A DNA stretch of 64,000 nt. It comes from the human T2T-CHM13v2.0 reference genome, Homo sapiens. The notes below the pieces were generated by a model, which saw nothing but the letters and a program-made list of their open reading frames with translations, ran no database searches and was not told the origin of the DNA. Position numbers and translations under genes: made by a program. The stretch lies in NCBI RefSeq assembly GCF_009914755.1, contig NC_060931.1; one strand, 5' to 3'. Positions within the stretch are counted from its first letter, which is position 1. Each line of letters opens with the position of its first letter. Of this stretch, positions 1,784 to 27,712 are shown piece by piece.

Positions 1784-1966
1784 CTGCTCCTGTTGAAAAA
1801 CTTGGATCACAGGAAATAGGATCATCTACATTCTCCACAAAAACTGTAAACGTATAGCTGCTGGTATTATTCCCATTATCTGTTGCCTCAGTTTCCAAAG
1901 AGTAGATTTTGGAGTTACTTGGGTTGTCAAGATTCAAAGGCTGAAGAAGAGTGATTGTTCCTGTGA
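1784..1966 (-). pseudogene. Cadherin exon A (second half of EC3)
   Basis: Acceptor tttctttttattag|TC, donor CAG|gtataa; 183 nt, phase 1-1. Reads TGTITLLQPLNLD...YSLETEATDNG...VENVDDPISC; overlaps ORF 1704..1937. Confidence 0.92.
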
Positions 1967-2144
1967 CTAATAAAAAGAAATAAAATGAAGAAAAATGACC
2001 AAACTAAGATAATCAAGCCTATGTTAGCTTATTTATGTTAATGATGTTTTAATTCACTTAACAATATACTTTTTTCATACATGAGAAAAGCAATATTTCG
2101 CAATTCTATGTCCATTGGAAATATTTTCTTAAAAGCTTCTGTTT

Positions 2145-2444
2145 GCTGGGTGCAGTGGCTCACGCCTGTAATCCCAGCACTTTGGGAGGCTGAGGCGGGC
2201 AGATCACGAGGTCAGGAGTTCGAGACCAGCCTGGCCAGCATGGTGAAACCCTATCTCTATTAAAAATACAAAAATTAGCTGGGCGTGGTGGCGCCTGCCT
2301 GTAGTCCCAGCTACTTGGGAGGCTGAGGCAGGAGAATAGCTTGAACCCGGGAGGCGGAGGTTGCAGTGAGCCGAGATCGCACCACTGCACTCCAGCCTGA
2401 GTGACAGAGCAAGACTATCTAAAAAAATAAAATAAAATCAAAAA
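2145..2444 (+). mobile_element. AluS (Sg-like), full length
   Basis: Dimeric Alu with A tail; TSD aaaagcttctgtttg at 2131 and 2443. Confidence 0.95.
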
Positions 2445-3032
2445 AAGCTTCTGTTTGCTTTATGGTTACATTGTAAATATAATTAAATATTAAAAATGGT
2501 TGCATCATATTTTTCAAGTTTCTAAATTATCATTCATTTACTAAGCATAGATAGCATCCCTACTTAAAAAATATCAAACACAAACCAGAATATTTTACTT
2601 TAATTACAACAATAAATGCTGTTTTTCAGCCTGAAAAATTAGTCAAACCATATTAAAATCTTAATCATTCATTGCTTCTGCCTTCTATCTTAACTCAATC
2701 TTATTGTGTACAAAAATGAAAAATGAGCTCAAATGTCAAACTTATAAAAAAATGGCAATAACAGAACTCTTTATTTCTGGTACCATCACCTATCTTCCCT
2801 CCCAGAATTTCTCCTTTCTTGTTCAAAAATCTTCTACCTTGACCCTACCCTGAATGTCTTCATAATTTCCACAAGGCCTTGTGGAATCTCTTCCAAATTT
2901 TCTCTTGCTAGTACATCATTATTTATTAAATGGACTTCTTCTCCCACTGATATTTGCATCTTGAAGTTAAATGCATAAGTTGCCAACGACTTTCAGGATT
3001 CAAATAAATTATCTCAAATATTGAATGATTAG

Positions 3033-3910
3033 TATGATGGCTTTGTAATGTGCCACATTTGCTAAGCCAAACTGTATTTCTCAGAATTCTATTTTGTGTG
3101 TGTTTCAGTTTGGTGAGACACAGGGAAATTCTTGGCCAACTTGGAGGGTAGAAGGGTAGCAGCAGCCATTTTGTTTCTTACCCATGTTTTTGTTGATCTG
3201 CTGTGTTACTGTTGGTGTGAACTAGCTTCAGCTAAATCTGAAATTGCTTGACCTACTGCTGGATCTTCTTTCAGCTTCTCTGACTCTTAGAACAGGTCTG
3301 TATACTCAGCCACGTGATGAAAGGCTCAGCTTCTGCAGAACACCCACACAAGCAAGGTCAGAAGCACAAAGAACTAACATGGGTTTCAGTTGATTCTTAT
3401 GGGGCCCAGCATATGCTTGTGTGTTCCAGACTACCCTTAACCTCCCCTACTTTGTATGCATCTTCTCTTCCTGACTTCCTGCCTTAGGGGTGAAAGCTTC
3501 AGCATCAGACACAAAGCCTTACAGAGACTACTTAACTCACTGCTACAGGGTACTCTTTTTTTTTTTTTTCTTTTTTCTACGAGATGAAGTCTCGTTCTGT
3601 AACCCAGGCTGGAGTGCAGTGGTGCAATCGTGGCTCCCTGCAACCTCCACCTCCCGGGTTCAAGTGATTCTCCTGTCTCAGCCTCCCAAGTAGCTGGGAC
3701 TACAGGCACCCACCACCACACCCAGCTAATTTTTGTATTTTCAGTAGAGATGGGGTTTCATCACGTTGGCCAGGATGGTCTTGATCTCTTGACCTCGTGA
3801 TCCACCCGCTCGGCCTCCTAAAGTGCTGGGATTACAGGTGTGACCCGCTGCGCCCAGCCTACAATGTACTCTCAGTGGTTATTTTTCTCTGGTTGTACCC
3901 TGATTGATAA
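3033..3910 (+). mobile_element. MLT2-like ERVL solo LTR interrupted by an Alu
   Basis: Begins near tgatggctttgtaatgtg and ends ttctctggttgtaccctgattgata, MLT2-like termini. Confidence 0.55.
3555..3859 (-). mobile_element. AluSc-like
   Basis: Poly-T plus antisense Alu containing gatctcttgacctcgtgatcc; degenerate TSD tacagggtactct/tacaatgtactct. Confidence 0.95.
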
Positions 3911-4356
3911 AACCAGCTAGTGTGACAACCCATAAGAGAGAAATATTTCAGAACAGCAATCCTGTTCACACAGGCAGAAATCTGTTCATAATAAATATCC
4001 AAAACCTAGTCATTCTGGAAAAGTCCCAATTTTCTCAAATCAAATTGAGATAGATATGACATTTCATCCTATAATTTATAAGGATGCACAGAAGCATTTG
4101 TATTGAGTGCCTCTGAAAAATGATAGTCAGTTATAAAAGCAAGGTATTACATCACCCATTATTTCACAAGAATGTCATTTTCAGAAATAGGAAAGCAGCA
4201 ACTGTCAAATACCACATGTTTGGGGAATGTTTTATTCTTCAGATTTCATTTAATTTTGAAAGGGCAGTTTTACCAGCCTAAGATCTAATGGAAGTGCAGA
4301 GATTAGATAGTGAATGTTTAGCCAAAGTAGGCTAAAAGTATTTATTTAAAACTTAC

Positions 4357-24700: not shown

Positions 24701-26337
24701 GGGAGGTTCATCTGGGAGTCAGGCCAAGGTTTGCAGTATCACTTCTAGCAGAGGACAAATAGGAAAAAATAAAATAAAAAAATAAAAAGCCCTGGGTCAG
24801 AATGGCAGGCAATCAGCCGCCTGAGACGATGGGCCTTATTGCAGTCTAACTATCAGAAATCAGCAACTCTCCTACTAAAGGAAGGTTTCCAGTATCTGAC
24901 CCTAGTCAGAAGGAAACAGTTGTTCAGATTTTACTCAAAATTTGAGGTTTCGAGCACAGTCCTGTAGACTGAGAGAAAAGGGAGCAGGTGAATCAACAGA
25001 AGTTGGAATTGATTTCTGTGGAAAAGACTGAGCTTGTTCTATGTGTGTGGAGTTGTGTTCAGCCACTGGTAAATCATTCAAGTGAGGTGACACTGGGTGG
25101 TGAGTAAGATATCAAATTCTTTTTGTTTTAAAAGCCATTTTCTTAAATTTATAAAAATCACGTCCAGCAATATTTTGACATTTTCTGAGAATGCCACACA
25201 AATAAACACACACACATTTTTAGAAATATCTGAAATGTAAATAAAACAGCTATGCTACCTTATATCTCATTTCAGAATTAACATCTAATTAAAATTGTAT
25301 ATAACTGTAGAAATCATACACTGAGTAAAAAACATCATAGTAAGGAAATAGGTTGATCCTATGTCAGAGGACATCAGAAACATCATTTGCCTTTGCAATT
25401 TAGCATTGGTTGGATTCTTAATTGTGAAAACAAATACTTTTGTGTTTTGTTTTTTTTTTAAATGCGAGACACTGTCCCACTTTTTCATTGAACCTACTGA
25501 GAGTCTACCATCCAGCCACCTGGTTAGGCACAGGGTGATGTGAGGAGTACGATGTATTTTCTGCCTTCACGGACTAATGTATTAATACTTCTTCTTGGGA
25601 AAAATTCCACTCCACAGTCAGTTCTCAAGCACTGACAATATCAGGGTTGGTAGTCAGCAGACCAGGATTTGTTCTGGAGAAAACTAATGGAGAACTTCAC
25701 CATCTTTCGCTGTGTTCACAGATCGAATTCGGTTGATGCAACTATCCATCCTAAAGTGTCATCTCTCACTACCATGGGCACTGCAATTCCCCACAAGCAC
25801 TTTGGAAGAAAACAGGCAAAGTCAACCTAAAATTGGCTCTAGAATTTTGGCTAGGGGTTCTTTTAAAAAGGGGCACAATCTTAGCATTTAATTAGTTAAT
25901 TTTTAATGTAATTTCAAACAATTAGATTATGAGCCAAGGATGGTAAACAATGCAAGGTAAACAGAGCTACCATATCGTGATTTTATTTAGTGATACTTAT
26001 CTAGTTTTTAAGCCACATGGATGTAAAACTTAATAAATGATATTATTTATTTTGTTTATCTTCACTGTACCGAAACGAAAACATTTTAAAACAAAAAATA
26101 AGTATTAATTATTTTTCTTGAAATTAGTACAAACATATCTGTCTTCACTCTATTATCTTTTTTGCCATAAAGGAACAATTTTTGGTCAACCTTTTCAGAG
26201 CTTGAATTTAGGACTATTAAGAAATAACTTTGAAATGTGATGATGCTTAAATTAATTTTTGAAATTCAGTGATGGGGTAGAACTAGGTCAGGAAATTGAA
26301 ATTTTTCCAATGGTATGAGACCTAGGAGACACGGTGA

Positions 26338-26421
26338 TTCACTTTATTATTTAAACCAAGGTTAATTTTTAGTTTTTAGTTCACTTTATTTATTTAAGCC
26401 AAGGTTAATTTTTAGTTTTTA
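26338..26421. repeat. Two-copy tandem duplication of about 42 bp
   Basis: ttcactttat(t)tatttaa(a/g)ccaaggttaatttttagttttta occurs twice. Confidence 0.9.
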
Positions 26422-27104
26422 TTGTTTAAATGCACTAGAAAGTTAAGTTTGCACAGGGATTGTTTTAAAATAAATAAAAGAGCTATGCTAACCCACAGAT
26501 GAGCTTTGTTGGTAGTATCCCTTTATTTTCATATAAATGTTTAAAATGTTATCATTGTTATAAAGCAAAATTATCTCTTCCTATTCTAATATTATTATCA
26601 TATATTTCAGGCATGTATTGGAAAACAAGTGTAAGAGAGGATATAAGAAAATCCTACAGATAATGCATTTGCTTGATTGATTTACATAATCACTGTGTTT
26701 CATAATAACTGCTTATGGAATAATGGGAAGTTTTATAAAATGCTGGCCTTGCATATATCTTAGAATGCCAATTTAATAAAGTGTGTTTACATGCATTATA
26801 TACATAGATAGATGATAGATAGAAAATGGATATGTCCTCTTTCCTATTTTTCAAAGAATATCTTTTTTCGTAAAAAGAATGAGATGACTCTCACGTCATT
26901 TTTATGAACAAAAATTTTATGTTTTCAGGAAACAACACTTGTGACAATGTTGTGATATCACAAATATGGGGCAAGGCGGGAATGGGAAGCCCCCTGAGAA
27001 ATTGTGTTGAATTTATGTGACTATCTGCAGCAAATTTTGACCAAGAAATCTAATGTACCACTTGGGTTCAACAAAATAATTTTCTTCAAAGTCTAAACTT
27101 TAAA

Positions 27105-27500
27105 TATGTTCTCACTCATATGTGGAAGCTAAAAAACAGTGATCTCATGGAAGTAATAAGTACAACAGAGGATACTAGAGACTGGGAGGGATAGGAGGAA
27201 GGGAAGGAAGGATAGGGAGAGACTTGTTAAAAGCTACAAAATTGCAGCTAGGTGGAAGGAATAAGTTCTGGTGTTAAGCACTGTAGTATGACTATAGTTA
27301 ACAATAATATATAGTTTCAAAAAGCTAGAAGGAGGATATTGAATATTCCAGACACAAAGAAGTGATAAAGGTGTGAGATGATAAATATGCTAATTATTCT
27401 GATCTGATCACTATACATTATATGTGTGGAAACAACATTATGTACCCCATAAATATGTACAATTATTATCTGTCCATTTTAAAAGTAAAATTAAAAAGTA
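27105..27500 (+). mobile_element. L1MA 3' end
   Basis: atgttctcactcatatgtggaagctaaaaaa...ggaataagttctggtgtt...tgtaccccataaatatgtacaattatta. Confidence 0.85.
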
Positions 27501-27544
27501 ATAACTATAAAGCAAATAAAAATATAAATGTCACAATTACTTAC

Positions 27545-27712
27545 TTGCATCGATGGCAAAATCTTATGTTTTATTCAGAAAACGGTAGACATCTCCCTTT
27601 CCAGCCACATCTTTATCATAAGCACGACTTAGTTGTGTTCCAGGGAGCATATTTTCAGGCAAATTCACTGGGTTAATTAAAATCTGAATTTCTGTTTTAA
27701 TGTGTGAAAACA
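27545..27712 (-). pseudogene. Cadherin exon G (signal-peptide end plus first half of EC1), carries the premature TAA at 27564-27566
   Basis: Acceptor tctttctgtgttatctcttcag|TG, donor GCAA|gtaagt; 168 nt, phase 1-1. Reads ...VNLPENMLPGT...AYDKD...KT*DFAIDA. Not in the ORF track. Alternative acceptors at 27691 and 27683 are possible. Confidence 0.85.

What the first reader, a model, noticed from the sequence alone, without database searches (positions are those of the whole stretch)
1784..27712. Hidden, almost intact multi-exon cadherin-related gene (three EC repeats spliced in frame across 26 kb)
Seen: seven minus-strand exons with all 14 splice dinucleotides canonical and phases matching. The split codons rebuild sensible cadherin residues (FAIDA-S-SG, SGT-A-TLEI, PQF-E-PF, LDP-F-TG). 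Exons G, E and C are invisible in the ORF track. Known: PE, DxD, LDxE and DxNDxxP are the calcium-binding motifs of cadherin repeats. Inference: this is a unitary pseudogene of a cadherin-related gene that is probably functional in other mammals and poorly characterised. I recall CDHR17P and mouse Cdhr17 near HGF but have not verified this.
Basis: partly seen in the sequence, partly recalled or inferred. Interest (0 to 1): 0.8.

Follow-up and report, generated by a model that had tools for sequence, protein, structure and literature searches.

The report
Dead human cadherin gene CDHR17
The exons of an "uncharacterized" human long non-coding RNA next to HGF are the remains of an old vertebrate cell-adhesion gene (cadherin-related 17) that still looks intact in mice, bats and marsupials but is broken in humans.

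Summary
Seven minus-strand exons (27545-27712, 17717-17887, 11035-11129, 8916-9038, 6943-7046, 4357-4502, 1784-1966) join into 990 nt. All 14 splice dinucleotides are canonical. The coding frame has 1 stop (TAA 27566-27564); the other two frames have 22 and 39.

Mouse LOC102640594/Gm28710 (962 aa) aligns colinearly, residues ~20-343, to exactly these exons. UniRef names the group "Cadherin related family member 17". The matching mouse segment has three Pfam Cadherin repeats.

The signal-peptide exon is most likely lncRNA exon 44442-44512. The gene continues about 84 kb left of the window, through the neighbouring lncRNA LOC105369146. It keeps 20 exons with canonical splice sites, but carries a second nonsense codon and five or six frameshifts.

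No other human locus resembles it closely. It is therefore a transcribed unitary pseudogene of CDHR17. The TAA arose after the ape/Old World monkey split.

The symbol CDHR17P and synteny with HGF in other species could not be checked. No paper on the gene was found.

The parts
44442..44512 (-). Probable coding exon 1: 5'UTR, then ATG at 44484-44482 and the start of the signal peptide (MVFQNIWVTTFICY). It ends in phase 1 (G|TG = Val) and is spliced to 27712 in NR_126025.1.
   Evidence: AG acceptor and G|GTAAGT donor. The exon is in frame with EC1 and gives a 63-aa ORF in the lncRNA. In a profile scan with 20 orthologue N-termini it ranked 17 of 18650 minus-strand windows upstream of 27712. Of the 8 phase-1-GT candidates listed there, it alone has an in-frame Met just upstream and a GTAAGT donor. 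It aligns to the pangolin and crocodile N-termini. This assignment is inferred, not proven.
27545..27712 (-).
   Evidence: tblastn against mouse, pangolin, bat, rat, opossum and marmoset gives 68-88% identity, E 1e-20 to 1e-27. AG/GT splice sites.
27564..27566 (-). Premature TAA stop (codon 64 counted from the ATG at 44484). It is the only disabling change inside the window.
   Evidence: This position is Lys in 19 of the 20 aligned orthologue models, marmoset included, and Asn in pika. It is also Lys in the macaque fragment P0124.
17717..17887 (-). Coding exon 3: second half of EC1, with the degenerate linker NIIDVPESP.
   Evidence: tblastn 72-78% identity, E about 1e-20 to 1e-23. AG/GT.
11035..11129 (-). 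Coding exon 4: start of EC2. Not annotated in RefSeq and skipped by the lncRNA.
   Evidence: AG/GT, phase 2 to 0. tblastn 66-82% identity, E 1e-7 to 1e-12. The siamang and macaque fragment models use it.
8916..9038 (-). Coding exon 5: middle of EC2.
   Evidence: 57-70% identity, E about 1e-12 to 1e-16. AG/GT.
6943..7046 (-). Coding exon 6: end of EC2 with the linker RNINDEKPQF. RefSeq lists only a short alternative form, 7010-7046.
   Evidence: AG acceptor, GA|GTGAGC donor. tblastn 53-81% identity.
4357..4502 (-). Coding exon 7: first half of EC3.
   Evidence: Pfam Cadherin E 1.1e-3, profile positions 2-46. tblastn 76-88% identity.
1784..1966 (-). Coding exon 8: second half of EC3. The gene goes on to the left of the window.
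   Evidence: Pfam Cadherin E 8.9e-3, profile positions 50-90. 39 database proteins at 70-92% identity.
14584..14719 (-). lncRNA-only exon, not part of the ancestral coding sequence.
   Evidence: No tblastn match with 7 orthologues. Stops in 2 of 3 frames; the one open frame is not in register with the cadherin frame of the neighbouring exons. Single copy in the genome.
3182..3332 (-). lncRNA-only exon, not part of the ancestral coding sequence.
   Evidence: No tblastn match with 7 orthologues. Stops in all three frames.

Best explanation
The region is the 5' third of a unitary (unprocessed, parent-less) pseudogene of the vertebrate gene CDHR17 (cadherin-related family member 17; mouse Gm28710/LOC102640594).

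The ancestral product was a type I membrane protein. It had a signal peptide, about eight extracellular cadherin repeats, a Thr/Ser-rich stalk, one transmembrane helix and a short tail.

In humans the gene keeps its exon-intron skeleton over about 128 kb, from window 44512 to about -83950, and its internal splice sites are canonical. It can no longer make the protein. A TAA at codon 64 (27566-27564) ends translation inside EC1. Further downstream lie a second nonsense codon and five or six frameshifts.

Because the splice signals survive, the locus is still transcribed and spliced. RefSeq therefore sees it as two separate lncRNA genes, LOC100128317 and LOC105369146. These reuse many ancestral exons, skip others and add new non-coding ones.

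Shown: the exons, the frame, the orthology and the disabling changes. Inferred: which exon is exon 1, the timing of the loss, and the absence of any residual function.
For: 1. Exons and frame. 14 of 14 splice dinucleotides are canonical, and the coding frame has 1 stop against 22 and 39 in the other frames.
2. Colinear match. All 7 orthologue queries match these exons in colinear order: five match all seven, the marmoset model six (it lacks 17717-17887), and the N-terminally truncated mouse-lemur model two. In the full-length models the matches span about residues 8-343 (bat, opossum and marmoset numbering is offset).
3. Family. 39 proteins are 70-92% identical to exon 1784-1966 and are annotated with PF00028. 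Names include 'Cadherin related family member 17', 'Gm28710' and 'LOC102640594 precursor'.
4. Domains. Mouse residues 1-343 have 3 Pfam Cadherin stretches, 97.6 bits. Whole mouse has 6 and pangolin 7.
5. Human peptide as a cadherin. The two halves of human EC3 hit complementary halves of the Cadherin HMM. The human in-window peptide also hits non-orthologous cadherins by phmmer: a protocadherin beta-9-like protein at 2.4e-23 and cadherin-8 at 4.8e-17, in a 123-sequence set.
6. Rest of the gene. It was found in 100 kb fetched to the left. Twenty exons from 27712 to -82794 are all AG..GT, and the conceptual translation is 80% identical to pangolin over 961 residues.
7. Disabling changes. TAA in exon 2; a stop in the exon at -5768..-5913; frame changes in the exons at -9491..-9669 (1), -64121..-64259 (2, compensating), -64439..-64690 (2) and -82701..-82794 (1, probable).
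8. No intact copy. With the mouse protein against the whole human assembly, only chr7 exons score 65-80% identity. Everything else is at most 37%.
9. Catarrhine models. The only models found are fragments: macaque 200 aa and siamang 204 aa with an Alu-derived N-terminus.
10. Neighbouring lncRNA. The 5' end of LOC105369146 (-18105) is exactly the first base of the coding exon at -18105..-18210. Its 3' end (-64146) lies inside the exon at -64121..-64259 (gene table).
Against: - Taken exon by exon against Pfam, only 2 of the 7 human exons hit Cadherin. Both are below the gathering score (19.8 and 16.9 bits against 28.8). The spliced human peptide could not be sent to Pfam.
- A relative-rate test shows no faster protein change on the human line than on the mouse-lemur line: 56 against 47 unique changes, chi-square 0.8. 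Neutral drift is therefore not visible in amino-acid divergence.
- The orthologues are computer-predicted models. Only the mouse one is labelled 'precursor', and three carry the label LOW QUALITY.
- The genome-wide search ran with a stricter first look, so a match could have been missed.
- Only one human haplotype (T2T-CHM13) was seen.
Confidence: 0.93

Rival explanations
1. The pseudogene origin is right, but the locus has been put to a new use. Either the lncRNAs regulate something (for example neighbouring HGF), or the 63-aa ORF left in NR_126025.1 (a signal-peptide-like start plus half of EC1, ending at the TAA) is translated into a small secreted peptide.
For: The in-window exon chain of RefSeq transcript NR_126025.1 holds an ATG-started 63-aa ORF with a hydrophobic N-terminus, in frame with EC1. 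All splice sites are kept over 128 kb. The locus names turn up in GWAS and linkage papers (search listings, and passages of PMC8263547 only).
Against: Nothing here shows constraint on the RNA or the ORF. The lncRNA skips or truncates ancestral exons and adds new ones, which looks like relaxed splicing (gene table). The papers seen only list the locus name within associated or linked regions. A stop this far upstream of many exon junctions would normally trigger nonsense-mediated decay (general knowledge).
Confidence: 0.06
2. The human gene is still protein-coding, either as an intact allele in some people or through alternative exons that bypass the defects.
For: The window part carries only one disabling change, and all splice sites are intact.
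Against: There are seven or eight independent disabling changes over 2.9 kb of coding sequence. The longest ATG-started ORFs in the full 20-exon splice are 324 and 216 aa, both internal and without a signal peptide. No human or ape protein longer than 204 aa appeared in the protein database.
Confidence: 0.01
3. It is a duplicated or processed copy of a cadherin gene that is still active elsewhere in the human genome, or a chance run of open frames.
For: None beyond the general abundance of cadherin paralogues.
Against: It contains introns at positions that fit the orthologue protein junctions. The best other human loci are at most 37% identical to the mouse protein, against 65-80% here. Per-exon E-values go down to 1e-30.
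Confidence: 0.005

Closest known systems
Mouse Cdhr17 (Gm28710, LOC102640594; P0021, 962 aa) and its orthologues in other vertebrates
   Same: Same order of exons and same repeat order. 73-81% amino-acid identity to placental orthologues over 890-960 residues. Reciprocal best match. Same unusual linker motifs.
   Different: The human copy has 2 nonsense codons and 5-6 frameshifts. RefSeq annotates it as two lncRNA genes (gene table).
Human cadherin-related genes CDHR2, CDHR3, CDHR4, CDHR5
   Same: Single-pass membrane proteins with several EC repeats. NCBI's automatic names for the orthologues are 'CDHR3-like' or 'CDHR4-like'. A Thr/Ser-rich stalk before the membrane recalls the mucin-like CDHR5; that comparison is from memory.
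   Different: Proteins named CDHR3 (turtles and marsupials) are only 26-30% identical to the lemur orthologue, so this is a separate family and not a CDHR3/4 copy.
CELSR1 extracellular cadherin repeats (PDB 8vy2, 7sz8)
   Same: Best solved-structure match of the mouse protein: E 1.3e-74, residues 369-783. The best paralogous human loci have the same coordinates as the CELSR, FAT and protocadherin genes as I recall them.
   Different: About 30% identity only. No EGF/laminin/GPCR part. The match is to repeats outside the window segment.
Other human unitary pseudogenes that are still transcribed (GULOP, UOX pseudogene, CMAHP; recalled, not looked up)
   Same: A gene lost in the primate line while the orthologue stays active elsewhere, with the exon skeleton kept and an RNA still made.
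   Different: This one has no published description that I could find. It is split between two lncRNA gene records.

Membership tests
Cadherin superfamily (Pfam PF00028) | Extracellular cadherin repeats detectable by the Cadherin HMM | tested here: inconclusive
   Human exons sent one by one: 2 of 7 hit, both below the gathering score (19.8 and 16.9 bits against 28.8). They cover complementary halves of the profile, 2-46 and 50-90. The spliced human peptide could not be submitted. The orthologous mouse segment 1-343 passes with 97.6 bits and 3 stretches.
Cadherin superfamily (Pfam PF00028) | Significant similarity of the human peptide to cadherins outside its own orthologue group | tested here: met
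   phmmer of the in-window conceptual peptide (X at the stop) against the 123 stored proteins gave 108 hits. Among them: protocadherin beta-9-like 2.4e-23, cadherin-8 4.8e-17 and turtle CDHR3 about 1e-15.
Cadherin superfamily (Pfam PF00028) | Calcium-binding motifs (xEx, DxD, LDxE/DRE, DxNDxxPxF) | tested here: inconclusive
   PE 2 times, DxD 4 times, one near-canonical linker RNINDEKPQF. Literal LDxE and DxNDxxP occur 0 times. Intact mouse protein has the same variants.
CDHR17 orthologue group | Reciprocal best match and colinear alignment over the whole protein | tested here: met
   Pangolin residues 8-1003 of 1027 are covered in order, and identity is 80% over 961 residues.
CDHR17 orthologue group | Conserved synteny (between SEMA3C and HGF) | not testable with these tools
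   No mammalian genome other than the window's own is held. The human gene order CD36-SEMA3C-LOC100128317-HGF is stated in PMC8263547 (passages). The mouse protein's contig is 151,758,149 bases long, which I recall as mouse chromosome 5, where Hgf lies. That is recollection, not a test.
Unitary pseudogene | Disabling mutations in the ancestral reading frame | tested here: met
   TAA at 27566-27564. A second stop and 5-6 frameshifts to the left of the window.
Unitary pseudogene | Unprocessed (introns kept), with no functional copy elsewhere in the same genome | tested here: met
   20 exons with AG..GT. A whole-genome search with the mouse protein found no other locus above 37% identity. The search used a stricter first look.
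Unitary pseudogene | Functional orthologue in other species | tested here: inconclusive
   Many full-length predicted open reading frames, but no experimental evidence was seen. No paper on the gene was found.
lncRNA derived from a pseudogene | Transcript evidence that reuses ancestral exons | not tested
   Rests on the RefSeq table supplied with the finding (NR_126025.1, BestRefSeq). Five of the seven exons plus the acceptor at 7046 are annotated. No RNA-seq data were available here.

The most novel reading that the evidence does not exclude
The 63-aa ORF kept in NR_126025.1 is translated into a small secreted peptide in humans. It starts at the ATG at 44484, has a signal-peptide-like start and half of the first cadherin repeat, and ends at the TAA. 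On this reading the 'dead' gene has become a micropeptide gene. A related possibility is that CDHR17 was lost independently in several mammal lines (apes and Old World monkeys, whales, sea cows), which would point to a dispensable, lineage-specific adhesion role.
Probability: 0.05. Interest if true: 0.55.

Novelty: new member of a known kind. Interest (0 to 1): 0.36.

Why it matters
It explains two "uncharacterized" RefSeq lncRNA genes beside HGF (LOC100128317 and LOC105369146) as pieces of one dead cadherin gene. That changes how association signals reported under those names should be read.

It adds a well-preserved case to the short list of human unitary pseudogenes. The gene is old: orthologues are seen from sharks to marsupials. 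It is lost in humans, and the first stop codon arose only after the split from Old World monkeys.

It also flags mouse Cdhr17, on which I found no paper, as a gene whose function cannot be studied in humans and whose loss may mark a primate-specific change.

This is ordinary biology, not a new kind of element. A curated human symbol may already exist that I could not see.

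Tried and rejected
1. I first read mouse Met1 as aligned to CTT at 27749-27747 and counted a lost start codon. That was wrong.
   - 27713-27749 is the pyrimidine-rich 3' end of an intron.
   - Unspliced ORF fragments from other species read the same 'LKSFCV' string through it.
   - Spliced orthologue models instead begin MNIFKILLIC.
   - The first 12 residues of the conceptual peptide used were therefore intron-derived. 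Recomputing with exon 44442-44512 changed identities by at most 1.5 points, the largest change being for marmoset.

2. Per-exon Pfam searches were weak: 2 of 7 exons hit. One search failed because I named the wrong stop codon. I corrected the code to TAA=X.

3. The relative-rate test, human against mouse lemur and against marmoset, showed no significant excess on the human line. It neither dates nor disputes the loss.

4. An unconstrained profile scan for exon 1 ranked the 44442-44512 candidate only 62nd of 65,682 windows. The case for it rests on added constraints: strand, position, phase-1 GT donor, in-frame ATG, and the annotated junction.

6. Literature.
   - No paper holds CDHR17P, Cdhr17, Gm28710 or LOC102640594.
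   - A search for 'unitary pseudogene' plus 'cadherin' gave 31 papers. The 15 listed are reviews or unrelated by title and abstract.
   - 'Cdhr18' occurs once in each of two papers. In PMC12519442 it was not in the part of the text that is held.
   - Supplements were not searched.

7. Structure prediction, complex prediction, the representative-protein search and the protein atlas were not used, because the orthology already settles the question.

Full report
**Observation**

The seven minus-strand exons exist as described.
- Five are RefSeq lncRNA exons: 27545-27712, 17717-17887, 8916-9038, 4357-4502 and 1784-1966.
- One is unannotated: 11035-11129.
- One (6943-7046) is a longer form of the alternative exon 7010-7046.

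All seven acceptors are AG and all seven donors GT. Joined, they give 990 nt. One frame has a single stop, against 22 and 39 stops in the other two.

With ORFs counted from the first ATG/GTG/TTG, three exons fall below 60 aa: 27545-27712 (49), 11035-11129 (45) and 6943-7046 (13). The stop is TAA at 27566-27564.

The literal motif claims are only partly met. PE occurs 2 times and DxD 4 times. LDxE and DxNDxxP occur 0 times, with one near-canonical RNINDEKP. The intact mouse protein shows the same departures.

**What it is**

The peptide of exon 1784-1966 finds 39 database proteins at 70-92% identity. Nearly all are about 640-1100 aa and carry PF00028. They come from rodents, bats, marsupials, pangolin, marmoset and mouse lemur. 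Labels include mouse 'LOC102640594 precursor', 'Gm28710' and, for jerboa, 'Cadherin related family member 17'.

tblastn of seven of these proteins against the window gives hits on exactly the seven exons, in colinear order.
- Five full-length models match all seven exons, over about residues 8-343 in pangolin numbering.
- The marmoset model matches six and lacks 17717-17887.
- The N-terminally truncated lemur model matches two.
- The lncRNA-only exons 14584-14719 and 3182-3332 get no hits.

Mouse residues 1-343 hold three Pfam Cadherin stretches (97.6 bits). Whole mouse holds 6 and pangolin 7.

Sent exon by exon, the human sequence gives only two sub-threshold Cadherin hits. These fall on complementary halves of the profile. 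The spliced human peptide could not be sent to Pfam. In the script box, however, it hits non-orthologous cadherins strongly.

**Exon 1: a correction**

I first took the mouse start codon to align with CTT at 27749. That was an artefact.
- 27713-27749 is the intron's pyrimidine tract.
- Unspliced ORF fragments of other species read through it in the same way.
- Spliced models begin MNIFKILLIC.

The RefSeq exon 44442-44512 is spliced to 27712. It supplies an in-frame ATG (44484-44482), a hydrophobic start (MVFQNIWVTTFICY), a phase-1 end that gives the conserved Val, and a consensus donor.

In a profile scan it ranks 62 of 65,682 windows without constraints. It ranks 17 of 18,650 minus-strand windows upstream of 27712. 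Of the 8 phase-1-GT candidates listed, it alone has an in-frame Met just upstream and a GTAAGT donor. It aligns with the pangolin and crocodile N-termini. I take it as the ancestral exon 1, at about 80% likelihood.

The in-window coding sequence is then 344 codons with one defect, the TAA at codon 64. NR_126025.1 still carries the resulting 63-aa ORF.

**Beyond the window**

The window's assembly is held, so 100 kb to the left was fetched. The orthologues continue to match, down to about window -83950. Pangolin residues 8-1003 of 1027 are covered.

Exon boundaries could be set for 20 exons from 27712 to -82794, all AG..GT. The defects found there are:
- a stop in the exon at -5768..-5913;
- one frame change in -9491..-9669;
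- two compensating frame changes in -64121..-64259;
- two frame changes in -64439..-64690;
- one probable frame change in -82701..-82794, which depends on the choice of acceptor;
- an in-frame 2-residue loss in the transmembrane exon.

The neighbouring lncRNA LOC105369146 begins at -18105. That is the first base of a coding exon. It ends at -64146, inside another coding exon (gene table). So one ancestral gene is recorded as two lncRNA genes.

The conceptual translation, with X at every break, is 80% identical to pangolin over 961 residues. It is 81% identical to squirrel over 922, 73% to mouse, 56% to crocodile and 43% to a shark.

**Unitary status and timing**

With the mouse protein against the whole human assembly, only chr7 exons reach 65-80% identity. 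All other loci are at most 37%. The search ran with a stricter first look.

Catarrhine entries in the protein database are fragments only: macaque 200 aa, and siamang 204 aa with an Alu-derived start. Marmoset has 445 and 404 aa models, and mouse lemur 714 aa.

Macaque and marmoset have Lys where human has the TAA, and marmoset has Glu at the second stop. The TAA is therefore younger than the ape/Old World monkey split.

A relative-rate test showed no excess change on the human line (56 against 47). It is uninformative.

From eight or so defects in 2.9 kb, I estimate roughly 20-30 million years of neutral drift. This is my own inference from general mutation spectra, not a computed result.

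**Distribution**

Full-length models occur in rodents, lagomorphs, bats, pangolins, an elephant shrew, marsupials, crocodilians, amphibians, sharks and coelacanth. Whale, dugong and manatee models are flagged LOW QUALITY. No carnivore, horse, bird, squamate or teleost orthologue appeared among the 130 hits, of which 120 were listed. Absence from this clustered, length-limited search is weak evidence.

**Known or new**

No open-access paper holds Cdhr17, CDHR17P, Gm28710 or LOC102640594. The LOC names of the two lncRNAs appear only in GWAS or linkage contexts. I saw search listings, and passages of PMC8263547 that give the gene order CD36-SEMA3C-LOC100128317-HGF. Supplements were not searched.

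The family has a curated name in mouse-derived annotation, so it is not unknown to databases. I could not see whether HGNC or GENCODE already record the human remnant.

**Verdict**

This is a real and correctly read feature: the 5' third of a transcribed unitary pseudogene of CDHR17. It is a new member of a known kind and of modest interest.

Noticed in passing
left of the window, about -18105 to -64259 (loci L012-L017): The neighbouring RefSeq lncRNA LOC105369146 starts exactly at the first base of a CDHR17 coding exon (-18105). It ends inside another (-64121..-64259). It looks like the downstream continuation of the same dead gene and not a separate gene.
   Followed up: partly
window 44442-44512 joined to 27545-27712: The in-window exon chain of NR_126025.1 holds a 63-aa ATG-started ORF with a hydrophobic, signal-peptide-like start. 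It runs into the first cadherin repeat and ends at the TAA.
   Followed up: partly
window 14584-14719 and 3182-3332: Two lncRNA exons have canonical splice sites but no counterpart in any orthologue protein tested. 14584-14719 is single copy in the genome. They look like newly recruited exons after the coding function was lost.
   Followed up: partly
window 12169-12405, 2119-2383, 6531-6701, 3621-3791, 9384-9601, 15327-15542, 18840-19190, 19531-19692, 42490-42707, 53497-53762, 62961-63180: The siamang fragment model P0125 begins with about 80 residues that match many dispersed copies in and around the window. I take these to be Alu elements, from the typical translated Alu strings. So that predicted protein start is repeat-derived.
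   Followed up: no
orthologue list: Whale, dugong and manatee orthologues carry the label LOW QUALITY PROTEIN. Carnivores, horses, birds, squamates and teleosts are missing from the hits. This hints at repeated independent losses of CDHR17.
   Followed up: no
left of the window, -3491..-3604: This 114-nt exon is present in the pangolin, bat, lemur and marmoset models but absent from the mouse model. It is probably an alternatively spliced exon inside the fourth cadherin repeat. The 3' end of lncRNA LOC100128317 (-3552) falls inside it.
   Followed up: no
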